In this document: positions 611 to 31,217 of the stretch, piece after piece
Layout: each line of letters begins with the position of its first letter
Position numbering within the stretch: the stretch's first letter is position 1
Translations under genes and position numbers: made by a program
IMG/VR virus record: IMGVR_UViG_2706794688_000010
Source: a virus
Lineage: Duplodnaviria > Heunggongvirae > Uroviricota > Caudoviricetes
DNA: 34,150 bases
Reading direction: 5' to 3' (one strand)
Notes under the pieces: generated by a model
The model's input: only the letters and a program-made list of their open reading frames with translations
What the model was told of the DNA's origin: nothing
Database searches by the model: none

Positions 611-860
611 NNNNNNNNNNNNNNNNNNNNNNNNNNNNNNNNNNNNNNNNNNNNNNNNNNNNNNNNNNNNNNNNNNNNNNNNNNNNNNNNNNNNNNNNNN
701 NNNNNNNNNNNNNNNNNNNNNNNNNNNNNNNNNNNNNNNNNNNNNNNNNNNNNNNNNNNNNNNNNNNNNNNNNNNNNNNNNNNNNNNNNNNNNNNNNNNN
801 NNNNNNNNNNNNNNNNNNNNNNNNNNNNNNNNNNNNNNNNNNNNNNNNNNNNNNNNNNNN

Positions 861-7708: not shown

Positions 7709-8092
7709 TTACGCTCTCCTTAACTGGATAGAGTAAACTGATGCGGAAGGATCTACACTTGCTGTAATTACCTCGTATCGTTGTAACTGCCTTGATACAG
7801 GATCATAAATCTCAATAATATGGTCGACAGCTGGTTTATCCGTAACCTCGCATACCAGAGCGGTTAATTTAAGGTCACCATGCAAAATATTAATCCCATC
7901 AATTCTGCCCAGCTTATAACGTGTCAACACGCCTCGCCCGGTATAGATTGCGGTTGATTCGCCGCCAGTTTCCGTCACAGGATCCCAGTGCCGGTGCGTA
8001 ACGTAAGAACCAGAAAAATCACTCACGGCGTCCGCTAAATCCTCATCAAAAGCAGCGGCAACCTCTGACTGAATCTCTTCACGAAGCCCCAT
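7709..8092 (-). CDS. Head-tail joining / head closure protein (FII position)
   Basis: 127 aa ORF in the head-tail connector block; tightly packed with neighbours. Confidence 0.5.
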   Translation of the reverse strand: MGLREEIQSEVAAAFDEDLADAVSDFSGSYVTHRHWDPVTETGGESTAIYTGRGVLTRYKLGRIDGINILHGDLKLTALVCEVTDKPAVDHIIEIYDPVSRQLQRYEVITASVDPSASVYSIQLRRA

Positions 8093-8487
8093 TATCCCCC
8101 CCTCACAACCCTGACTTGTGAGCGACTAAGTCCGTACGGTTTCAGCAGTGCTATCGCAAGCTGTAAATCGGGTTCAAGCAATGCAGTGCTGTTTGCTGGC
8201 AACTCAGAAAATGATTTCGATACACTGACCCCGTCAGCCGACACGGCTTTACTGATAACAACGCCAGAATCATTTTTCTGCTGAAACAACTTACCGAATG
8301 AGGCAATTCTGGCTGCATATGCTCCCGCAAGTTTTACCTCTTCCGGAATACGGGATGGGTTAATTTTCAGGTTGAAGCCATTAAGCCAGGCATTAGCCAT
8401 TAAAACAGCTTTATTTTTAGCGTTCTCACTCGTCCAGGCGTTCCCAAACGCATTATCAACGTCATCACAGGTCACGTAAGTGATCAT
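8092..8487 (-). CDS. Head-tail connector protein (gp6-like)
   Basis: 131 aa ORF, first gene of the connector block downstream of the capsid gene. Confidence 0.5.
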   Translation of the reverse strand: MITYVTCDDVDNAFGNAWTSENAKNKAVLMANAWLNGFNLKINPSRIPEEVKLAGAYAARIASFGKLFQQKNDSGVVISKAVSADGVSVSKSFSELPANSTALLEPDLQLAIALLKPYGLSRSQVRVVRGG

Positions 8488-8490
8488 GTG

Positions 8491-8667
8491 TTACTCCTGA
8501 GTTTTCCAGCCCATAGCCTTCCAGTTGTCAACTTCATCAGGATGAACATTAGCGATAGTTGGTGCGCCGGGAAACATCTGATAATCGGTCACCATAACCA
8601 CTAACTCAATTTGCGTTTTTTGTGCGGCTTCACGCTGTGCTCTTTGCTCTTTAGTTAATCCGGCCAT
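8491..8667 (-). CDS. Small hypothetical protein (58 aa)
   Basis: Hand-translated MAGLTKEQRAQREAAQKTQIELVVMVTDYQMFPGAPTIANVHPDEVDNWKAMGWKTQE; G-rich RBS before the ATG; not in the ORF track because under 60 aa. Confidence 0.4.
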   Translation of the reverse strand: MAGLTKEQRAQREAAQKTQIELVVMVTDYQMFPGAPTIANVHPDEVDNWKAMGWKTQE

Positions 8668-8676
8668 ATGCCCCCC

Positions 8677-8699
8677 ATTAAAAATGGGGCCGAAGCCCC
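8677..8699 (-). terminator. Rho-independent terminator after the major capsid gene
   Basis: Minus strand GGGGC-TTCG-GCCCC followed by ATTTTTAAT; lies between the capsid stop (8710) and the small ORF. Confidence 0.6.
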
Positions 8700-8709
8700 G
8701 TTTGAATGT

Positions 8710-9849
8710 TTAACCAAGAATCAGACAACCATGTGCCGGCTTCACTGATGAAACACCCCATGCCAGTCCAACTTCATAGCGCACCTGGCGATACTGACGA
8801 TACAGTGCAATCTGGAACGTAATCCCTGAAATCGGGTCCGTAACATTCATTACATCATCAGCATTATCGCCACCTTCCGGCATTGCCGGAGTACGGGATG
8901 CCAGCAGAAACGCGTTGCGATCAAACGCCATATTTGCAGTAAAGGCCCCAACAACTGTGATGGCAGTATCATCGGCCAGATCCTGACGCAGTCCGGGCGC
9001 TGCAAGAGTAATCAGATTGCTGGTCGCTGCTGCCACAACATACTGATTCGGATCACCAGCGAACGTAACAATCTGACCTGCAGAAATACTCCCCGAACCA
9101 GTATCAATGGAAATAAGAACATCGCCTTCTTTTTTCTCTCCATTCACGAGATAACCAGTTGCAGCAACCTTTGGCGCTCGTTTCACACCTGCCGAACTGT
9201 GAATATTGAATCCCTCCAGACGCCCCAACACGCCCTCACGCAGTAGCTGTTCAGTGCCGGATTCATTCACTTTAAACAATACAGACTGTTTTCCGCGCAA
9301 ATTAGCAATGGCAGTGGAGCCAAGCACCATCTGCAGATCGGTTGTCGGTGCGCCGTTATCCTCCAGAACCTGACGAGCCAGAGCAGCATCAGAAAGATCA
9401 TCTTTAACACCAAACGGCGTTGTCCCTGCGGTTCCCACGGCGCGGGAAGCACCGAAATACAACGCACCAAGATCAGCCTCAACCTCGTTTGCAAGGGCGC
9501 GAAAAGCCTGCTTGAACTGATCAGCCAGAATGGTGTTGTAAGTCCCTGAAGGGCCAAGAGCCAGTTGTTCTTCACCATTCCATTTAACCGGTGCCATTTT
9601 GGATTTAGTAATTTTTACATCAACAGTGCCAATATTTTGATCACCGGTATTCGGAGCTGACGGCCCCGGTACGATATCTTCGGTTTTCGCCTCAGGCGCA
9701 ACTGGCGCGGTTACCGTCTGATCTTTTGCTGCGGCGTCAGCTTTTGCGTTTTTTGCTACCGCAGGGATAAAACCTACCTGCTCACGGGATACAACATCCA
9801 GGGCGGTATAAATAGTCGGGATCAACCCGGTCAGGGTATTTCCAGCCAT
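8710..9849 (-). CDS. Major capsid protein
   Basis: Large ORF directly downstream of the scaffold gene; likely start MAGNTLTGLIPTIYTAL... at 9849 (the track ORF extends to 9942 but its first 31 codons lack an RBS); strong terminator follows. Confidence 0.75.
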   Translation of the reverse strand: MAGNTLTGLIPTIYTALDVVSREQVGFIPAVAKNAKADAAAKDQTVTAPVAPEAKTEDIVPGPSAPNTGDQNIGTVDVKITKSKMAPVKWNGEEQLALGPSGTYNTILADQFKQAFRALANEVEADLGALYFGASRAVGTAGTTPFGVKDDLSDAALARQVLEDNGAPTTDLQMVLGSTAIANLRGKQSVLFKVNESGTEQLLREGVLGRLEGFNIHSSAGVKRAPKVAATGYLVNGEKKEGDVLISIDTGSGSISAGQIVTFAGDPNQYVVAAATSNLITLAAPGLRQDLADDTAITVVGAFTANMAFDRNAFLLASRTPAMPEGGDNADDVMNVTDPISGITFQIALYRQYRQVRYEVGLAWGVSSVKPAHGCLILG

Positions 9850-9947
9850 AATTAAATATTCCTTAAAAATTTGCGTAATTGTGAATAGATGGAGTAATGA
9901 GCTATCCAGCCCTGACACCAGCTCCCATCCGGAAGCTGACAAATGTG

Positions 9948-10712
9948 TTAATCAACGATTGTGATACCGTCTTTCAATGCGTTTTGCTTACCTGCAACAT
10001 CCAGTGCATCAAAAGCAGAGCGTTTCATCGTTTTCTGACCAATATCATGCTGTGTCGGACGGGAGCCGCCGCCATTGTTGCCACTGGCTTTCAGGATGTA
10101 GTCTTTCTGAGGGTAATTTTCGACAAGGAACTCCAGCGCCTCATCAAACTGCGCCAGTTCGCCAGGCTTCGCGCGGGAATAAATTTTGTTGCCGGAAGCG
10201 TCATAAGCAACGATCCTCCCTTCTTCCACTTTGAATGCCTGCCCGAAGCGGGCTTGTAATAAATCTGCCGGAATCGCAATTTTATCGGCAATATATTTTG
10301 AACCCGCAAAACTACCGCCAATCATAGAATCGTAAAGCTGCTTCTCCAGCATCTGAGAGCGTTGCTTTTCTTCATCTAATTGCTGCTGAAAATTTTTCGT
10401 AATTTCTGCCTTAACCTGGTCAACCTGTCCCGCATCGAGCAGCTTTTTCTGGTCGATTTTTGACAGCATTTCCAGTGCCTCGATCGCCTTCTTCGGGTCT
10501 TCGATAGCGGCAAACTTAGCCAGTTTTTCCTCTGCAGCTTCTTTAGCCAGGCGATGATTTTTTGCCTCGCCATTAAGCTCTGTAATTTTTTTTGTCGCCA
10601 GCGGTGCATCGAAGCCAATTTCTTTACCATCGTCGTGCACATAAACTGGCAGGCCAGCAGTATCAATTTCTGCGTATTGTTTTCCGTTAATCTCGACCGT
10701 TTTCAGTTTCAT
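9948..10712 (-). CDS. Capsid scaffolding protein
   Basis: Start MKLKTVEINGKQ... at 10712; Lys/Glu/Ala/Gln-rich coiled-coil composition; between the MuF-like and capsid genes. Confidence 0.7.
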   Translation of the reverse strand: MKLKTVEINGKQYAEIDTAGLPVYVHDDGKEIGFDAPLATKKITELNGEAKNHRLAKEAAEEKLAKFAAIEDPKKAIEALEMLSKIDQKKLLDAGQVDQVKAEITKNFQQQLDEEKQRSQMLEKQLYDSMIGGSFAGSKYIADKIAIPADLLQARFGQAFKVEEGRIVAYDASGNKIYSRAKPGELAQFDEALEFLVENYPQKDYILKASGNNGGGSRPTQHDIGQKTMKRSAFDALDVAGKQNALKDGITIVD

Positions 10713-17739: not shown

Positions 17740-19042
17740 TTAGGAGCGCCAAAAAAAACCTGAAAACAATATAATAACAGGATAAATTTCAAGGCGACCA
17801 AGAATCATAGCTATGCACATTAAATATTTTGCAATGTCATTAAGCACTCCGAATGACGATGCAGTAGCCCCAAAACCTAATCCCATATTATTAATACATG
17901 CAGCCACTGTTGCAAATGATGTAAGAAAATCATATCCCATACCATTTAACACCAGTATAAAAAACACCGTGAAGAGAGTATAAAGAAAAAAGAAACTCCA
18001 TACAGACCTCATTACACGATCTGTAACTATCTTCCCTCCTACATTTACACTCAACAACGCTCTGGGATGAGAAAGCTGATTTATCTCGTGTTTGCTTTGT
18101 TTGAAAAGTATAAGAAATCGAAGTGACTTAATTCCACCACAGGTTGAACCTATACATCCCCCAAAGAAACTTGACAACAGCAAAAACACTATCGTGTGCG
18201 TGGGCCAGTTTGCATAATCCTGCGTAGCTAAACCATTATCAGTGAGCATGGAGCTGGCAAGAAAAAACGAATGAATAAAACTTCCATGCAAGTCATACAT
18301 ACCTATATGCCAGACCTGGAAAGAGGTAACAATGATCACCCCTAAGGCTATTAACAGAAAGAAACGAAGTTCAATATCTCTGATTAAAGGTTTTATCGTT
18401 TTTCTGCTAATAACAATATACCAAAGAGTGAAGTTGAAAGCCGATAGCAGGGAAAAAGAACCAGCCACCAGCTCAACCAAATAGTTATTAAAATATCCGA
18501 TACTCTCNNNNNNNNNNNNNNNNNNNNNNNNNNNNNNNNNNNNNNNNNNNNNNNNNNNNNNNNNNNNNNNNNNNNNNNNNNNNNNNNNNNNNNNNNNNNN
18601 NAACAATAACTCCTAAACCACCTATAAAATTTAACTGTGACCGATAGTACAAATATGCCCGAGGTAATGAACTAACATCATCAATTACAGTTGCTCCTGT
18701 TGTTGTTATTCCAGAAACCCCTTCAAACAGAGCATCAATGAACGTTAAATTAAGTTCTGAGTCAATCCATAAAGGGAATGCACTAATAACAGAAAACAAA
18801 ATCCAAAACATTACAATTATAATAAACCCATCACGGGTACGTAATTGAATGCCAGATTTCTTAGTTGTATACCACGCTCCGCCACCAATGCAAAAAAATA
18901 TAACGAAAGTTATAAAGAAAACGAACAGGCTTTTTTCTTTATAAAACAATGCTACAACCATTGGTGGCAACATTGAAAGACTATAGAGCCAAACCAGGAA
19001 CCCACACATATGAGTAACAACTCTTACATGAGATGTATTCAT
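17740..19042 (-). CDS. trkG: Trk-type potassium uptake protein TrkG (interrupted by N-run 18508-18601)
   Basis: N-terminus MNTSHVRVVTHMCGFLVWLYSLSMLPPMVVALFYKEKSLF... and C-terminus ...ILGRLEIYPVIILFSGFFWRS match the Rac-prophage TrkG as I recall it; multi-pass membrane protein; AT-rich gene directly downstream of Rz as in Rac. Confidence 0.85.
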
Positions 19043-21000: not shown

Positions 21001-21150
21001 TTCTTGCTCCTCAATCCATTAAAATCTCAGCAATAGTAGTTGTTACGTCCGCCACTGGCTCAGAGCTGACTATCCGCTAAATTTAGCTCAGTGCCGTAGC
21101 TGTGTCAGAACAAACCTAAGCCGAAACCGTTTATTACAAAACAATAAATA

Positions 21151-22196: not shown

Positions 22197-22646
22197 GGTC
22201 AATACAAAGGATGCTTCGTCTTTATTATAGTAATCTGAGGCGTCGGGTGTCTTGTATCAGACAACATATTGTCCCGCTAAACAGCGAATTACAAACCACC
22301 CTNNNNNNNNNNNNNNNNNNNNNNNNNNNNNNNNNNNNNNNNNNNNNNNNNNNNNNNNNNNNNNNNNNNNNNNNNNNNNNNNNNNNNNNNNNNNNNNNNN
22401 NNNNNNNNNNNNNNNNNNNNNNNNNNNNNNNNNNNNNNNNNNNNNNNNNNNNNNNNNNNNNNNNNNNNNNNNNNNNNNNNNNNNNNNNNNNNNNNNNNNN
22501 NNNNNNNNNNNNNNNNNNNNNNNNNNNNNNNNNNNNNNNNNNNNNNNNNNNNNNNNNNNNNNNNNNNNNNNNNNNNNNNNNNCAATCCGCCTCGCGATAC
22601 AGCTTTGCGAAGCATAGCAAAATTGAAGCAGTTTATACGTAAGAAA

Positions 22647-22984: not shown

Positions 22985-23234
22985 NNNNNNNNNNNNNNNN
23001 NNNNNNNNNNNNNNNNNNNNNNNNNNNNNNNNNNNNNNNNNNNNNNNNNNNNNNNNNNNNNNNNNNNNNNNNNNNNNNNNNNNNNNNNNNNNNNNNNNNN
23101 NNNNNNNNNNNNNNNNNNNNNNNNNNNNNNNNNNNNNNNNNNNNNNNNNNNNNNNNNNNNNNNNNNNNNNNNNNNNNNNNNNNNNNNNNNNNNNNNNNNN
23201 NNNNNNNNNNNNNNNNNNNNNNNNNNNNNNNNNN

Positions 23235-24078: not shown

Positions 24079-24881
24079 TTCTCAATCTCTCGATGGCGCA
24101 GCGCAGCAGATGCCAGTTGTTCAGGCTGACGAATAAAGTATAAATAAACTGGCTATGGTGTAAAGCCCCACATAGCATGAACAAACACTACATATCAAAT
24201 AGCTGGTACAAGGATAGAAATACGACACTTATTATTAAAANNNNNNNNNNNNNNNNNNNNNNNNNNNNNNNNNNNNNNNNNNNNNNNNNNNNNNNNNNNN
24301 NNNNNNNNNNNNNNNNNNNNNNNNNNNNNNNNNNNNNNNNNNNNNNNNNNNNNNNNNNNNNNNNNNNNNNNNNNNNNNNNNNNNNNNNNNNNNNNNNNNN
24401 NNNNNNNNNNNNNNNNNNNNNNNNNNNNNNNNNNNNNNNNNNNNNNNNNNNNNNNNNNNNNNNNNNNNNNNNNNNNNNNNNNNNNNNNNNNNNNNNNNNN
24501 NNNNNNNNNNACTCAAGTCATTAACATTTGATAAGATATATCTAAAAGGACGCCTTTACATTATTTATGCGTATATAATTTATTTATATACACAGTAAAG
24601 GTATCCTGGGAAAATATTTATCGTTAAAAAATACATCATAAATAATTAAGCTGAAATTTCAGAACACAACTAATACACACAATAAGGTTCAGTAACAGTA
24701 ATCTATGTGGACTACATCGAGATTTTTTGATTAAACTTTAATAACTTATTCCTAACACACAGAATGCATAAACTAAAAGTAAAACAAATAGTTATACGAA
24801 AAACAACCATATTTATTCTATCTTCTCCTCTAATCAACATATCAATTATGTGTTTCATAACAGCTTGACATAACCCTCCAA

Positions 24882-25326: not shown

Positions 25327-25878
25327 AAATATATTGGTTCTACATTGACAGGAGACTTCAACCATAAGAAGTAATCTGAATACTTGAGCAATAAATTTAC
25401 TTAAGATTAATGAGCGCACCTTGCCGGACAAAGATAAACCAAGGTAACACCTTTTTTCTAGCCAGTATGTAATCAATCAGAAAGCCGCTCCATAAGAACA
25501 ACAGCAAGACAATAAATTGCCATTACAGCCGCAATAGCCAGCGCACATTTGAGAACCAGCACGACAACCCCCTGTATTAGACGCACACCAGTCCTGATAA
25601 ATATGAGGCTGTCTCGTCAGTGATTCAATACAACTATTGGGTATAGTTTCTGTGATTTTATTCTGTAGAAATGGAACACAACAACCAGTCACCACCAGCA
25701 CTTCCTTAAATGCTCTAAGTCAGAAACAAGCCAACATTTTAGTCCGCTTTGAGCGATCTGCAGACATTGCTAGCAGCCTTCTGTGTGAATTCTCAGGGAG
25801 CAGGTCGGCATAGCATCACGTTGAGGCTCTTACCCTACTTGTTCACACCAACCCTAACTCCACAGACTGATTCATAAA

Positions 25879-26880
25879 TTAGTAATCTGCGTGTTTCGCA
25901 CTTTTCAGAAATGCTTTCATATTTTCATTAGGTCGCTCAATTTCGAAGTTACTTCCATATAACTCTTGTAATTTTGGCCATAACTTACTTAATAACCCTC
26001 TCCTGCGATAAAATGGATGTATCCAAACGGTAGATAGGTACGGAGAATTTGCATTTGAATTGTTTATTGTGACCAGCCCAACTAAACATTGTCGATAACC
26101 ACTATTATCCATTGATTGTATTTCTTCGACGAATGGATACGCGATTACATCAGTCCAACCATGATCGGTTGTATCCCATTGCATTCCGTCATGACATTCC
26201 TTCGACTGATAGCGGCGTAAAGCTACACACGCGAGCTTTTGCCAATCTGGAGAATTAATTGTGATCTCTTCATCGTATGACGCGCCTATTGGAGCGGGTA
26301 TTGGTCTGATTAATCCAGCATGGCATTCATCATAGAACTTCATGTTTCCCTCAGAAACGTTGTGTACGTTGGGTTGCTCCATGTGTGCGCCATTCAAAAA
26401 TAGCTCTGATAGTAGTGTATCTACACTGTAATCTTTATTGATTATTGTCGGCTTAGAGTTTTTCTTATTAAGGCCGCGAGTAACGATTTTTTGATCAATG
26501 TTAACAACATGGAATAATCCGTCGGGGAGGCTAGCGAACCACGATGGGGCATCGGACCAGAATAGCATGCCTTTTGTACTTCTTAAGAGTTTAATTAAGT
26601 TAATACAAGCTTCTTCACTAGTCTTGCCGTTGATGCGAAGTATGTTAGGACTAAAGTAATATTCATCCATATCAGGGAATGCAGCTTCGCAAAACTCCTG
26701 TACATAATTTAGCACCTGGATTCTACAGAGATCATCATAGCTGGTAATAACTAAGGGGGTATCTTCATTACTATTATGATTATCAATAATGCAATCTATA
26801 GCGAGACTTACTGCTTTGCGTATCACTTCAGTTGAATCTAACGACTCTAAAAATTTTGTCTTTCGTGTGCGAATATCCAT
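25879..26880 (-). CDS. Hypothetical protein, 333 aa, possible C-terminal GNAT-like acetyltransferase motif
   Basis: Second gene of an AT-rich two-gene cassette, 16 nt after the upstream gene; C-terminal ...CLVGLVTINN...YLSTVWIHPFYRRRGLLSKLW... resembles GNAT motif A (h-x-V-h-P-x-Y-R-x-x-G); motif-level only. Confidence 0.55.
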   Translation of the reverse strand: MDIRTRKTKFLESLDSTEVIRKAVSLAIDCIIDNHNSNEDTPLVITSYDDLCRIQVLNYVQEFCEAAFPDMDEYYFSPNILRINGKTSEEACINLIKLLRSTKGMLFWSDAPSWFASLPDGLFHVVNIDQKIVTRGLNKKNSKPTIINKDYSVDTLLSELFLNGAHMEQPNVHNVSEGNMKFYDECHAGLIRPIPAPIGASYDEEITINSPDWQKLACVALRRYQSKECHDGMQWDTTDHGWTDVIAYPFVEEIQSMDNSGYRQCLVGLVTINNSNANSPYLSTVWIHPFYRRRGLLSKLWPKLQELYGSNFEIERPNENMKAFLKSAKHADY

Positions 26881-26895
26881 GTATGACCTGCGCTA

Positions 26896-27918
26896 TTAAA
26901 ATTCATGAATGAACGGTTTGTCATCTGGTTGCAAAATGGTGGTTTTATTCGTTGCTACATTTAAACTGTTGTAGAGCATAATTGCCAGGTTCGATGCATT
27001 TTCAATCAGCGTTTCAAGATCCTGGTCTGTAATCACTACGAGGTTCCCTTCTTTATCCTTTCCACCACGATGCACTAAGTGATTTCGATTGAGGGTTGCC
27101 AATTCAATAGCTTCTATCGGACAGTCTTTTTGTACTTTTATATCGAATGTAGCTTCATAGCGGTCGATTACCTTTTTAGTGCTATGCCAGCTTGCACTGA
27201 TCAAGTGTTCCTTGATTGACCTGATTAGCTCTCCCCTAATTTTCTCGATGGGTTCACCCTTGAAAGGCAACGCAGCAATATCTTTGCTTACTTTAAATTC
27301 AGTCTTACCTTTTTCTATACAATTGGCTATGTAGACATCATCTTTCTCTATAGAATTAATGAATAGCTCAACATAAAGCGTTTCCAAAGCTGTAATAACA
27401 TTCGTGTAGAGCAAACTAAGCAAGTGGTTTTTTTGCTGTTGTTCAGTTTTATCTTTTGCAAGTTTTTTTATTTTATCGATATTATCAATGAATTTTAAAT
27501 ACGGATTACCGGAAGACGTTACAGCGTCGTAGATATCATCATCGTACCAATCATCTATATTATTTGAGTTTCCAGACCAGTCAAAACATTGTGTTTGTAA
27601 TTCATCTACTAATTCCTCAATATACTCAGATTTAACATATTGACCGAAGATGGATTGTAGTTCTTCGCTCGCATCATACGGCCCGCCATATATGTAAGCA
27701 TAGCCACCTTCTCTACTTTCATACGGACAAGCATTTGCCGGATCTTCAAAGTTTTCAAAGAACCAGTTTTTCATTACTTCGAGTTGATCTTTTTTGCTTA
27801 TGTATTTTAAAGATTTTAGTGGAACTTTCTTTCCATTAACCTCGAAAACAATTTTCACGATGTAACGCTCCCTTGTATCAATTGCGCAACTATTATACCA
27901 CAGCGAAATACAGGGCAT
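26896..27918 (-). CDS. Hypothetical protein, ~341 aa, possible HEPN-like Rx4H motif
   Basis: ATG at 27918 preceded by AAGGAGG (6-nt spacer); an alternative GTG at 27855 follows an internal TGGTATAAT and AAGGGAG; C-terminal ...ATLNRNHLVHRGG... contains R-N-x3-H; acidic central region; low GC. Confidence 0.55.
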   Translation of the reverse strand: MPCISLWYNSCAIDTRERYIVKIVFEVNGKKVPLKSLKYISKKDQLEVMKNWFFENFEDPANACPYESREGGYAYIYGGPYDASEELQSIFGQYVKSEYIEELVDELQTQCFDWSGNSNNIDDWYDDDIYDAVTSSGNPYLKFIDNIDKIKKLAKDKTEQQQKNHLLSLLYTNVITALETLYVELFINSIEKDDVYIANCIEKGKTEFKVSKDIAALPFKGEPIEKIRGELIRSIKEHLISASWHSTKKVIDRYEATFDIKVQKDCPIEAIELATLNRNHLVHRGGKDKEGNLVVITDQDLETLIENASNLAIMLYNSLNVATNKTTILQPDDKPFIHEF

Positions 27919-28056
27919 AACCTGCCTCCTTAAACTAACATACCATGAGCCAGCAATGTCCGCTATTGGCACAAAGCGGACAACCACGCTAGCTCTCCCC
28001 TGTGCCAGAAAAATGTCAATTTACATATGAACTAATGCTCTTTGATCTAGTAACGT

Positions 28057-28473
28057 CTATAAATACCGAAGATTTCCTTGATAAAATGCCAGTACACGTT
28101 TCATAACTTCACTCTTCCGGCACTCGCGACAGATTATGTTCTGACGCCTGTCATAGCGGCGTATTTCTCCGTCTGGTAATGACCAGATAAGGTCAGGATC
28201 AACCACAACCGTTTTTTTCACCTTTGCCCTGGATAGTTTTTTGCGGGCGTTTTTCCAATCCTTACGAGCCTGTTCAGACGGGAATAACCCATAGCCAGAG
28301 TTGTATACATCGCCACTGGCAACCAACTCTCTGGCAAGAATGCTCATCAGATATCTTGTCGCACCTGTCTTGGCCTCCAGTTGCCTTAACGTCTCGCGCC
28401 CACTCTGGCGTACCAACTCAACAACCTGCTCCTTAATTTTTTCACGCTCTTCCTGTGTAAAAACTTTTGCCAT
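28057..28473 (-). CDS. Winged-helix-like small protein, paralog of the gene at 30795-31217
   Basis: Start MAKVFTQEEREKIKEQVVELVRQ... with GGAGG RBS; about 85% nucleotide identity to 30800-31040 over the C-terminal two thirds (…GDVYNSGYGLFPSEQARKDW…DPDLIWSLPDGEIRRYDRR.NIICRECRKSE…). Confidence 0.6.
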   Translation of the reverse strand: MAKVFTQEEREKIKEQVVELVRQSGRETLRQLEAKTGATRYLMSILARELVASGDVYNSGYGLFPSEQARKDWKNARKKLSRAKVKKTVVVDPDLIWSLPDGEIRRYDRRQNIICRECRKSEVMKRVLAFYQGNLRYL

Positions 28474-28488
28474 AAGCGCCTCCGGCAA

Positions 28489-29272: not shown

Positions 29273-29338
29273 TTACTTCTCAATTCCTGGCTGGACGACA
29301 TTCGGACGCCAGCTCTCCCAGTTAAAATTCACCCATCG
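29273..29338 (-). pseudogene. 3' fragment of a second DnaC-like (YdaV-like) gene, remainder in N-run
   Basis: Encodes ...[21 protein letters not shown]; about 37 nt identical to the 3' end of ydaV at 31255-31300. Confidence 0.4.
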
Positions 29339-29588
29339 NNNNNNNNNNNNNNNNNNNNNNNNNNNNNNNNNNNNNNNNNNNNNNNNNNNNNNNNNNNNNN
29401 NNNNNNNNNNNNNNNNNNNNNNNNNNNNNNNNNNNNNNNNNNNNNNNNNNNNNNNNNNNNNNNNNNNNNNNNNNNNNNNNNNNNNNNNNNNNNNNNNNNN
29501 NNNNNNNNNNNNNNNNNNNNNNNNNNNNNNNNNNNNNNNNNNNNNNNNNNNNNNNNNNNNNNNNNNNNNNNNNNNNNNNNNNNNNNNN

Positions 29589-30233
29589 GATAAGAGGGCG
29601 TCCCTGAGATTTGCGGTGTAGATTGGTATCGCGCAGAGAATACACACAGCCACAATATTCCTGCTGATAGAATTTTTCGCGCTTGCTGATTTCAATCATA
29701 CGGGACGAGCCGCCCTGCTTGCGCCAGTTATAATCCCAGTACACCATGCCCGGATAATGCGCGACGGCTCGCCGCCCACAGTCGTTAACCTGCTGCATAT
29801 TTTTCCAGCGTGAAATGCCCAGTGAACTGCTGATCACACTGAAACCATTTTCAGCGGCGTACAGCGCTGTCCGCTCAAAACGCATGTCAAAACACATGGT
29901 GCAACGGATCCCTCGTTCGGGCTCCCATTCCATTCCTTTGGCTCGTTCAAACCAGTTGTCTGTGTCGTAATCAGCATCAATAAACGGCACGCCGTGTTGT
30001 TCAGCAAAGCGAATATTCTCATCCTTACGAATTAAATACTCTTTCTGAGGATGAATGTTCGGGTTGTAGAAAAAGATGGTGTAGTCGATTCCCGAGGCCT
30101 GAAGCGCCTCCATCACCTCACCGGAACATGGAGCACAGCAAGAGTGCAGTAGTAGTTTGTTTGCCCCGTTTGGGAGCTCCAATTTGGGCCGTTTGAAATC
30201 AGCAACTGTCATAAATATGTTTATTGGGGTCAT
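29589..30233 (-). CDS. QueH-like (DUF208) epoxyqueuosine reductase-like protein, C-terminus in N-run
   Basis: N-terminal [17 protein letters not shown] plus downstream Cys motifs ([17 protein letters not shown]) fit my recollection of the DUF208/QueH Fe-S family; weak RBS. Confidence 0.5.
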
Positions 30234-30794: not shown

Positions 30795-31217
30795 TCACAG
30801 TATCGCCTCCTGAAAATTACCCTGATAGAAAGCCAGTACACGCTGCATAGCTTCGCTCTTCCGGCACTCGCGACAGATTATATTCAGGCGCCTGTCGTAG
30901 CGGCGTATTTCTCCGTCAGGTAATGACCAGATAAGGTCCGGATCAACAACAACCGGTTTCCTCACCTTTACTCTCGAGAGTTTTTTGCGGGCGCTTTGCC
31001 AGTCCTTGCGAGCCTGTTCAGACGGGAATAAGCCGTAGCCAGAATTATATACATCACCACTTGCGACCAGTTCTATGCATAAGCGACCGACAGACGCACG
31101 ACTGATACCTGTTTCATCTGACAACTGCCGAATCGTGACCCGACCGTCCTGATGCACGAGTTCCACAATTCGCGTCTTCAGTTCTTCCCGCTGTTCGGGA
31201 GTAAAAGGTTTCGCCAT
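30795..31217 (-). CDS. Winged-helix-like small protein (likely the intact counterpart of Rac ydaW), paralog of 28057-28473
   Basis: 140 aa, AGGAGG RBS; immediately downstream of ydaV; paralogous to the second copy. Confidence 0.55.
   Translation of the reverse strand: MAKPFTPEQREELKTRIVELVHQDGRVTIRQLSDETGISRASVGRLCIELVASGDVYNSGYGLFPSEQARKDWQSARKKLSRVKVRKPVVVDPDLIWSLPDGEIRRYDRRLNIICRECRKSEAMQRVLAFYQGNFQEAIL

What the first reader, a model, noticed from the sequence alone, without database searches (positions are those of the whole stretch)
25879..28056. AT-rich two-gene cassette of unknown function in the replication-to-nin interval: candidate undescribed defence or toxin-type system
Two co-directional genes of ~341 and 333 aa, separated by 16 nt, with clearly lower GC than the flanking phage genes and the first with a consensus AAGGAGG RBS. 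They occupy a hypervariable moron position between the replication module and the nin genes. I could not place either protein in a known family by eye. The first has an R-N-x3-H motif near the C-terminus (HEPN-like, but chance-prone); the second has a C-terminal GNAT-like core motif after a ~230-aa unknown region. Operon structure, composition and location suggest an accessory two-component system, for example abortive infection or toxin-antitoxin.
Basis: inference. Interest (0 to 1): 0.8.

Follow-up and report, generated by a model that had tools for sequence, protein, structure and literature searches.

The report
Portable HEPN RNase plus acetyltransferase cassette
A low-GC two-gene cargo in an E. 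coli Rac-like prophage encodes a predicted RNA-cutting HEPN enzyme and an acetyltransferase with a previously unseen front domain; the two genes travel as one cassette bounded by short palindromic sites that, in other phages, bracket many different cargos, including a known anti-phage gene.

Summary
Both genes lie on the minus strand, 15 nt apart. At 38% GC they form the lowest-GC 2.1-kb stretch in the window (the rest is 46.5%).

Gene B (25879-26880) is 333 aa. Its roughly 190-aa N-domain is found nowhere outside this rare family. Its C-terminal half has a GNAT fold.

The pair is conserved, with the same spacer, in E. coli, Serratia, Aeromonas and one unidentified bacterium from a public sequencing run. 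Each gene also occurs alone. A was deleted at least twice, leaving B under purifying selection. An obligate toxin-antitoxin pair is therefore not supported.

Relatives sit in the P2 defence hotspot, in a satellite-like element and in defence islands. Neither protein matches PADLOC, and I found no literature on them.

The cassette (25742-27981) is bounded by inverted 24-bp palindromic sites. The same sites bracket at least 27 different cargos elsewhere, one containing an AbiH-family gene.

Best reading: a portable, uncharacterised, Abi-like defence cargo.

The parts
25742..27981 (-). The whole mobile cassette, from site to site (2240 bp).
   Evidence: Homology to copies in unrelated flanking contexts stops at 27981/27982 and at 25742/25741/25737. 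These copies are in Serratia L007, Mangrovibacter L129, viral contig L109 and MDR plasmid L123.
27958..27981 (-). R site: 24-bp palindromic boundary element GTCCGCTTTG-TGCC-AATAGCGGAC. It is the core of a longer hairpin spanning 27949-27994.
   Evidence: The 30-nt pattern occurs only twice in the 34-kb window, with 0 expected by chance. The hairpin folds at -26.8 kcal/mol, z = -3.2. The same site precedes 27 different cargos in IMG/VR contigs.
27892..27900 (-). Candidate extended -10 promoter element, TGGTATAAT.
   Evidence: It is conserved (TGnTAYAAT) in E. coli, Serratia, Aeromonas and the A-deleted derivatives. Promoter function is inferred. The consensus scan did not list it because there is no good -35.
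27868..27874 (-). Shine-Dalgarno sequence (AAGGGAG) for the GTG start of gene A.
   Evidence: It is conserved in the three A-containing lineages that were aligned.
26896..27858 (-). Gene A, 320 aa. Residues ~1-115 form a HEPN_RES_NTD1-like N-domain. Residues ~120-308 form a RiboL-PSP-type HEPN domain.
27070..27087 (-). HEPN catalytic motif R258-N-H-L-V-H263, followed by R264-G-G266-K.
   Evidence: R258, H263, R264 and G266 are invariant in 52 homologues down to 27% identity.
26881..26895 (-). 15-nt A-B spacer.
   Evidence: The spacer is 15 nt in E. coli, Aeromonas (L118) and L126.
25879..26880 (-). Gene B, 333 aa. Residues 1-~165 form a family-specific alpha/beta N-domain. A linker follows. 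Residues ~190-333 form the GNAT domain.
25996..26007 (-). GNAT motif-A-like acetyl-CoA pyrophosphate loop, R292-R-R-G295.
   Evidence: R292 is invariant and H288 and P289 are nearly invariant. The Pfam Acetyltransf_1 hit covers aa 264-311 at 19.9 bits, just under the 20.7-bit cut-off.
25742..25765 (+). L site: 24-bp boundary element GTCCGCTTTG-AGCG-ATCTGCAGAC, inverted relative to the R site.

Best explanation
The locus is a self-contained, horizontally mobile cargo cassette, bounded by palindromic sites and carrying its own promoter. It holds two separable single-protein modules that are co-transcribed.

Gene A encodes a latent HEPN endoribonuclease of the RiboL-PSP family, which is distantly related to AbiD and AbiF. 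Its conserved N-terminal domain most likely senses a cue or restrains the enzyme. On phage infection the HEPN domains would form the usual composite Rx4-6H active site and cut cellular or phage RNA. That would stop translation and abort the infection.

Gene B encodes an acetyl/acyl-transferase whose unique N-terminal domain probably selects its substrate. B acts alongside A, as a second effector or a modulator, rather than as A's obligatory antidote.

Shown here: the folds, motifs, mobility, separability and purifying selection. Inferred: RNase activity, the trigger, the anti-phage role and B's substrate.
For: - HEPN fold and invariant Rx4H motif.
- Family assignment through homologues.
- Anantharaman et al. 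[quoted passage not shown]
- The NTD1 domain and the RiboL-PSP HEPN domain each recombine with other partner domains, which is typical of conflict systems.
- Solo A homologues lie in the P2 gpA-portal locus, next to an ApeA_NTD1 protein. Rousset et al. 2022 (PMC9122126) showed this locus is an anti-phage hotspot.
- Other solo A homologues lie in an integrase/AlpA/Rep satellite-like element and next to an Mrr nuclease.
- The Aeromonas A-B pair sits beside TIR_2 and SIR2_2-STALD genes.
- The same site-bracketed slot holds an AbiH-family gene in other E. coli.
- The pair has co-diverged as a unit: E. coli versus Aeromonas dS is 0.43 for A and 0.48 for B, with the 15-nt spacer kept.
- Both genes are under purifying selection.
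- The low GC and the discrete boundaries indicate foreign cargo.
Against: - There is no experimental phenotype.
- Neither protein matches any PADLOC model.
- The window protein's own Pfam hits fall below the gathering thresholds.
- Among the four neighbours nearest each relative, integrases, transposases and phage structural genes were the commonest families; defence genes were a minority.
- The same slot also carries a non-defence cargo, a BCCT transporter with a DUF2254 protein.
- Neither gene is found in sequenced infective phages, apart from two distant uncultured hits to A.
- B's role is essentially unconstrained by the data.
Confidence: 0.5

Rival explanations
1. Enzyme-neutralised toxin-antitoxin pair (type VII-like). 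A is a HEPN toxin, and B keeps it inactive by acetylating it, in the way MNT AMPylates HEPN toxins.
For: - The operon is tight, with a conserved 15-nt spacer.
- The best structural matches of A include HEPN toxins of HEPN-MNT systems: 8xdj, 5yep and 7ae2.
- Among close relatives, A was lost twice while B was kept. That is the direction expected when a toxin is lost.
Against: - A occurs without B at 56-77% identity in many elements. In L124 the homology ends at A's stop codon.
- B stays under purifying selection after A is lost, with dN/dS of 0.06-0.12.
- B occurs alone in distant lineages.
- The gene order is toxin first.
- A carries its own putative regulatory N-domain.
Confidence: 0.12
2. 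Two unrelated morons lie side by side with no anti-phage role. For example, B could modify a host or phage molecule for lysogen fitness or counter-defence, and A could act in RNA processing or inter-bacterial conflict.
For: - Each gene is autonomous elsewhere.
- The slot also carries a transporter.
- B homologues lie in ICE-like and CP4-like islands next to antirestriction/RadC/CbeA and DUF4400 genes.
- One B-only copy lies next to an Imm11 immunity gene.
- Phage GNATs can be anti-defence proteins: AcrVA5 is an example, recalled from memory and not checked here.
Against: - The pair has co-diverged as a unit in four lineages.
- A's family is related to Abi genes, and its solo relatives sit in defence hotspots.
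- The Aeromonas copy is next to TIR and SIR2 genes.
Confidence: 0.22
3. B is the toxic effector, a GNAT that acetylates aminoacyl-tRNA like AtaT, TacT or ItaT. A is its regulator or partner.
For: - B has a GNAT fold.
- In Psychrosphaera (L016) a B homologue overlaps a downstream SIR2_2 gene by 4 nt. B may therefore pair with other effectors.
Against: - There is no RHH/DUF1778 antitoxin.
- B is twice the size of GNAT toxins.
- B stands alone in many genomes.
- The closest folds are protein and polyamine acetyltransferases, not TacT or AtaT.
Confidence: 0.06

Closest known systems
Ribo L-PSP-HEPN family (Pfam PF18735; Anantharaman et al. 2013) and the related AbiD/AbiF (Abi_2) abortive-infection HEPN proteins
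   Same: Both have a C-terminal HEPN domain with the Rx4H motif. Both are single-chain proteins built as an N-terminal domain plus HEPN. Both are carried on mobile elements.
   Different: The family was defined only in silico, and I found no experimentally characterised member. The window protein itself scores below the Pfam threshold. Here the N-domain is HEPN_RES_NTD1 rather than an L-PSP or HEPN_Toprim_N domain. Here it is linked to a GNAT gene.
HEPN-MNT toxin-antitoxin systems (type VII)
   Different: There is no MNT nucleotidyltransferase. A is 320 aa with an extra N-domain. The partner is a GNAT. The pairing is not obligatory.
GNAT toxins of type II TA systems (AtaT, TacT, ItaT, KacT)
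   Same: Both have a GNAT fold and are carried on mobile elements.
   Different: B is 333 aa with a roughly 190-aa unique N-domain. It has no RHH antitoxin. It is not detectably related to these toxins by sequence.
Acinetobacter dif modules (pdif-flanked modules) and integron gene cassettes
   Same: All are discrete cargo modules bounded by short palindromic recombination-type sites. In dif modules, as here, the sites flank the module in inverted orientation. Many alternative cargos exist, modules sometimes form arrays, and there are no target-site duplications.
   Different: The site sequence is unlike dif or attC. The sites are 24 bp and lie at both ends. No XerCD-type or IntI-type recombinase has been identified. 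The hosts are Enterobacterales prophages and islands. Actual site-specific recombination has not been shown.
P2/P4 defence hotspots (Rousset et al. 2022)
   Same: Both are a fixed position in a temperate phage holding interchangeable low-GC cargos, including Abi genes. Solo A homologues occupy the P2 gpA-portal hotspot itself.
   Different: This slot follows the DUF977 gene of Rac/lambdoid phages, and it is delimited by specific palindromic sites.

Membership tests
HEPN superfamily | Rx4-6H catalytic motif | tested here: met
   R258-NHLV-H263. R258 and H263 are invariant in 52 homologues.
HEPN superfamily | All-alpha HEPN helical-bundle fold | tested here: met
HEPN superfamily | Metal-independent endoribonuclease activity | not testable with these tools
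   Needs biochemistry.
RiboL-PSP-HEPN (PF18735) | Significant match to the family profile | tested here: inconclusive
   The window protein has no PF18735 hit at E <= 1. Fifteen of 52 homologues match, with a best E of 1e-9. UniRef names the exact sequence a RiboL-PSP-HEPN domain-containing protein. Membership therefore rests on transitive homology.
HEPN_RES_NTD1 (PF18870) | Match to the N-domain profile above the gathering score | tested here: inconclusive
   The window protein scores 22.2 bits against a 27.4-bit cut-off (E = 1.9e-4). Thirty-eight of 52 homologues match at E < 1e-3.
GNAT acyltransferase superfamily | GNAT fold | tested here: met
GNAT acyltransferase superfamily | Motif A, Q/R-x-x-G-x-G/A, and a Pfam match above threshold | tested here: inconclusive
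   The motif reads R292-R-R-G295-L-L, so the last position is not G/A. R292 is invariant. PF00583 scores 19.9 bits against a 20.7-bit cut-off.
Toxin-antitoxin system (any type) | Obligatory co-occurrence of the two genes | tested here: not met
   A-only and B-only loci are common. Two independent deletions of A left B intact.
HEPN-MNT TA | Adjacent minimal nucleotidyltransferase antitoxin | tested here: not met
   The neighbour is a GNAT, and there is no NTase domain.
GNAT-RHH type II TA | A GNAT of about 170 aa with an adjacent RHH/DUF1778 antitoxin | tested here: not met
   B is 333 aa, and there is no small RHH ORF in the cassette.
Known anti-phage systems (PADLOC-DB v2.0.0) | Significant match to a system component | tested here: not met
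   The best E-value for A is 0.01, and B has no hits.
Integron cassette | A single attC with RYYYAAC/GTTRRRY cores at the 3' end, and an IntI integrase | tested here: not met
   The sites are 24 bp, lie at both ends in inverted orientation and lack attC cores. No IntI gene appeared in the partial annotation of the neighbourhoods. These were not searched systematically for recombinases.
dif/pdif modules | 28-bp XerC/XerD sites flanking the module, mobilised by XerCD | not testable with these tools
   The architecture is analogous. The sequence is unlike dif, judged from memory of the dif sequence. Recombinase binding cannot be tested here.

The most novel reading that the evidence does not exclude
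The A-B unit is an undescribed anti-phage cassette that combines a HEPN RNase with a GNAT acetyltransferase built on a new domain. It is also one of many cargos of a previously undescribed cassette-exchange system in Enterobacterales. In that system, inverted 24-bp palindromic sites (GTCCGCTTTG-N4-CAAAGCGGAC type) bound interchangeable modules in Rac/lambdoid prophages, genomic islands and plasmids. An unidentified site-specific recombinase would move the modules, in a way analogous to Acinetobacter dif modules or integron cassettes.
Probability: 0.3. Interest if true: 0.85.

Novelty: new variant of a known kind. Interest (0 to 1): 0.62.

Why it matters
- About 4% of complete E. coli genomes carry this cassette (209 of 5426). 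The same 90%-identity protein clusters include Klebsiella, Proteus, Morganella, Salmonella and Shigella. Its proteins are annotated only as hypothetical.
- If A is an Abi-type RNase, it would be the first characterised member of the RiboL-PSP/NTD1 HEPN group.
- B would define a new acetyltransferase family with a domain seen in only about two dozen sequence clusters worldwide.
- The palindromic boundary sites give a simple sequence handle for harvesting many more candidate cargos from lambdoid prophages. At least 27 turned up in one capped scan.
- The sites may also reveal how such morons are exchanged.

Tried and rejected
- Sequence and profile searches of A, B and B's N-domain against the PDB gave nothing meaningful.
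- A Pfam scan of B's N-domain in 23 members gave only scattered single hits.
- Rfam and tandem-repeat scans found no RNA antitoxin or repeat array.
- The sigma-70 scan found no more sites than chance.
- The upstream 138-aa gene in Aeromonas is unrelated to DUF977. The 311-aa gene next to the Legionella homologue of A is unrelated to B.
- The roughly 325-aa gene downstream of distant A homologues is a Mu-like protease or scaffold protein, not a partner.
- A classical TIR transposon was rejected because no target-site duplication is present in five contexts.
- The search for an empty site found one candidate (L209), but its downstream flank could not be matched.
- An exact-match scan for array junctions found only one viral contig.
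- Four alternative cargos have no PDB relatives.
Full report
**1. Observation**

Two ORFs lie head to tail on the minus strand: A at 26896-27987 in its longest form, and B at 25879-26880. The gap between them is 15 nt.

Six runs of N mask parts of the window, so I recomputed composition without them. The cassette is 38.3% GC and the rest of the window is 46.5%. It is the lowest of 250 sliding 2.1-kb windows. GC3 is 0.35-0.36, against 0.48-0.53 in the neighbouring genes.

The window is a Rac-like lambdoid prophage of E. coli. A cassette copy identical over the 2.5-kb query lies in strain FORC_081, in a prophage integrated next to ttcA. Reading along the minus strand, the order is:
- cI/cro-like genes, YdaT and the replication genes;
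- DUF977, a Zn-ribbon protein, QueH, DUF1627 and a second DUF977;
- A and B;
- DUF1971 (opposite strand), DUF1367, YbcO and the lysis genes.

**2. Start of gene A**

The AAGGAGG-ATG pair (27931-27925 and 27918) exists and would give a 340-aa protein. Three things point instead to the GTG at 27858 (320 aa), which has its own AAGGGAG:
- All 51 aligned homologues begin at the residue matching that GTG.
- PGAP annotates the same start.
- In Aeromonas the ATG and AAGGAGG are not conserved, while the GTG, its Shine-Dalgarno sequence and an upstream extended -10 (TGGTATAAT, 27900-27892) are.

The ATG lies upstream of that -10 element. The promoter assignment is an inference.

**3. Gene A**

- *Pfam.* The window protein gives only a sub-threshold HEPN_RES_NTD1 hit. 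Among 52 homologues, 38 match PF18870 and 15 match PF18735 (RiboL-PSP-HEPN). UniRef names the exact sequence a RiboL-PSP-HEPN domain-containing protein.
- *Motif.* The alignment has invariant R258, H263, R264 and G266, within RNHLVHRGGK. The N-domain has a strongly conserved core, CPYESREGGYxYIYGGPYDA.
- *Literature.* Anantharaman et al. [quoted passage not shown]
- *Modularity.* In viral contigs the NTD1 domain occurs with other C-terminal regions. The RiboL-PSP HEPN domain occurs behind a HEPN_Toprim_N domain.

**4. Gene B**

- *Sequence.* Pfam gives a just-sub-threshold GNAT hit at residues 264-311.
- *Motif.* R292 of an R-x-x-G motif is invariant.
- *N-domain.* A profile of the N-terminal 190 residues, searched against 1.84 billion representative proteins, found only 24 clusters. 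All but one marginal hit (E 8e-4) have the same roughly 330-aa architecture or are fragments of it. The profile matches no Pfam family and no PDB sequence.

B is therefore a rare, gammaproteobacterial, two-domain acetyltransferase family with no assigned function.

**5. Are A and B one system?**

In 5426 complete E. coli genomes, A and B each occur in 209 genomes at 99% identity or more. A is truncated in 4 of them. This is one near-clonal cassette, so it says little about whether the genes depend on each other.

| State | Where found |
|---|---|
| A and B adjacent, 15-nt spacer where checked | E. coli; Serratia grimesii (97% nt identity); Aeromonas (86%); an unidentified bacterium from a public sequencing run, locus L126 (79%) |
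| A alone | L124 (77% aa identity; homology ends at A's stop codon); Dickeya; an E. coli integrase/AlpA/Rep element; eleven viral contigs at 56-74% |
| B alone, distant | 39-62% identity in Shewanella, Serratia, Colwellia, Idiomarina and others |
| B alone, close | 86-91% identity in Rahnella, Enterobacter, Mangrovibacter and viral contigs |

Synonymous divergence between E. coli and Aeromonas is similar for the two genes: 0.43 for A and 0.48 for B.

The close B-only copies are internal deletions of A. The leader is joined to the last roughly 40-75 nt of A. There are two different deletion end-points, so A was lost at least twice.

dN/dS is 0.06-0.16 for A and 0.2-0.3 for B. Within one A-deleted lineage, B has dN/dS of 0.06-0.12.

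The pair is real and old enough to have co-diverged. Neither gene needs the other. An obligate toxin-antitoxin relationship, in either direction, is therefore unlikely.

**6. Context of relatives**

- Solo A homologues lie between P2 gpA and Ogr/portal, one of them beside an ApeA_NTD1 protein. Rousset et al. showed that this locus is an anti-phage hotspot (PMC9122126).
- Others lie next to an Mrr nuclease or in a satellite-like element.
- The Aeromonas pair is beside TIR_2 and SIR2_2-STALD genes.
- A Psychrosphaera homologue of B overlaps a SIR2_2 gene by 4 nt.
- I pooled the 145 nearest neighbours of the relatives. Integrases and transposases were the commonest Pfam families, with phage structural genes also present. 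PADLOC hits were ThsB-like TIR proteins, methyltransferases, a DRT-type reverse transcriptase and a PDC candidate component. These are mobile-element cargo regions with some defence content.
- Neither protein matches PADLOC v2.0.0.
- PHROGs lists both only as unknown function.
- No paper in the library mentions the pair or its accessions.

**7. Cassette boundaries (beyond the original finding)**

*Two sites in the window.* The cassette is flanked by two inverted copies of a 24-30-nt palindromic element, at 25742-25771 (+) and 27952-27981 (-). These are the only two matches in the 34 kb, with none expected by chance. Each folds as a hairpin.

*The sites mark the mobile unit.* Homology to cassette copies in unrelated flanks ends within a few bases of the outer edges of these sites. 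The copies are in Serratia, Mangrovibacter, a viral contig and an IS26-rich multidrug-resistance plasmid.

*The same sites bracket other cargos.* In phage Tritos the site pair brackets a 444-aa hypothetical gene. In phage Evi it brackets an acetyltransferase plus a regulator. Both slots follow the DUF977 gene.

*Census in IMG/VR.* A capped scan for the right-hand site returned 122 sites. Of these, 75 pair with a left-hand site within 12 kb. The paired slots hold 27 distinct cargos of 0.4-5.9 kb, in either orientation and mostly low in GC.

PGAP names for the commonest alternatives are:
- an AbiH-family protein plus a hypothetical protein;
- a DUF4209/DUF7380 protein;
- a 269-aa hypothetical protein;
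- a BCCT transporter plus a DUF2254 protein.

*Where homology breaks.* Sequences flanking different cargos are conserved up to and into the site. They diverge from the cargo-side half-site onward. The backbone-side half-sites are mutually complementary (GTCCGCTTTG and CAAAGCGGAC). Part of their apparent invariance comes from the search patterns I used.

*Arrays and duplications.* In some islands the sites form arrays, with a left site, 18 nt and a right site between successive cargos. No target-site duplication is present in five different contexts.

*Resemblance and limits.* The architecture resembles recombinase core sites and the pdif-flanked modules of Acinetobacter plasmids (PMC6449649, found; the comparison itself is from my own knowledge). 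I did not identify a recombinase or show excision. I found no paper describing the site sequence in a bacterial or phage context.

**8. Mechanism and rivals**

Best explanation, confidence 0.5: a portable cargo operon with its own promoter.
- A is an autoinhibited HEPN endoribonuclease. Its NTD1 domain senses a cue or restrains the enzyme. A triggers abortive infection by cutting RNA.
- B is an autonomous acetyltransferase module that adds a second activity or modulates the first.

Only the folds, motifs, mobility, separability and selection are shown. The rest is inferred from what is established for the HEPN and GNAT families.

Rivals:
- a type VII-like HEPN/GNAT toxin-antitoxin pair (0.12), weakened by the solo A genes and by selection on orphan B;
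- two non-defence morons, or a counter-defence gene (0.22);
- B as a tRNA-acetylating toxin (0.06).

Decaying pseudogenes are excluded by the intact ORFs and the low dN/dS.

**9. Verdict**

Its motif guesses were correct.

Its interpretation as an accessory, defence-type cassette is plausible and unrefuted. The two-component or TA part is not supported.

The cassette is a new variant of a known kind: an Abi-like HEPN protein linked to a novel GNAT family. The site-bracketed cargo slot is the most unexpected result and deserves its own follow-up.

Noticed in passing
window 25742-25771 and 27952-27981; L130 704-727 and 2505-2528; L131 1086-1109 and 2504-2527; L008, L108 and L127 (arrays): Inverted 24-bp palindromic sites bound the cassette. 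The same sites bracket at least 27 different cargos after the DUF977 gene of lambdoid phages. In some islands they form arrays, with a left site, 18 nt and a right site between cargos. There are no target-site duplications. No recombinase was identified, and I found no literature on the site sequence.
   Followed up: partly
L123 (NZ_CP069974.1, 136-kb plasmid), locus 7783-10022: The complete site-to-site A-B cassette sits on an E. coli multidrug-resistance plasmid. It lies between IS26 and a relBE/ydfV prophage fragment, near erm(B), mph(A) and qnrS1.
   Followed up: partly
window 29322-30233 (-): A QueH (epoxyqueuosine reductase, PF02677) gene sits between two DUF977 paralogues (28057-28488 and 30795-31217) in the replication-to-nin interval. 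It is another cargo, this one related to tRNA modification. Part of it is masked by N.
   Followed up: no
window 611-860, 18508-18601, 22303-22582, 22985-23234, 24241-24510, 29339-29588: Six masked runs of N (94-280 nt) interrupt several ORFs. They also depress the GC values in the raw composition profile.
   Followed up: yes
L039 3338-4693 and 4860-5945; L042 4911-5945: Solo homologues of A (about 70% identity) occupy the P2 gpA-to-Ogr/portal defence hotspot. In L039 the homologue sits beside a protein with an ApeA_NTD1 domain.
   Followed up: partly
L016 1-951 and 948-2480: In a Psychrosphaera MAG, a homologue of B (43% identity) overlaps a downstream 511-aa SIR2_2-domain gene by 4 nt. This suggests that B-type proteins can be coupled to other effector types.
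   Followed up: no
P0139 / L113; H1, H7 and H74 in E. coli genomes: Some E. coli carry disrupted copies. One form of B has residues 1-132 replaced by 119 unrelated residues. IS2, ISSen4 and IS1 insertions occur in or next to the cassette. A is truncated in 4 of 209 genomes.
   Followed up: partly
L002 4025-4960: The distant Legionella pneumophila homologue of A is preceded, 40 nt upstream, by an unrelated 311-aa gene with no Pfam match. This may be a different partner.
   Followed up: partly
window 21047-21070: GTCCGCCACTGGCTCAGAGCTGAC is a degenerate sequence resembling the left-type boundary site. It could be a relic of another slot or a chance match. The loose pattern finds 6 sites in the window, against 1.3 expected.
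   Followed up: no
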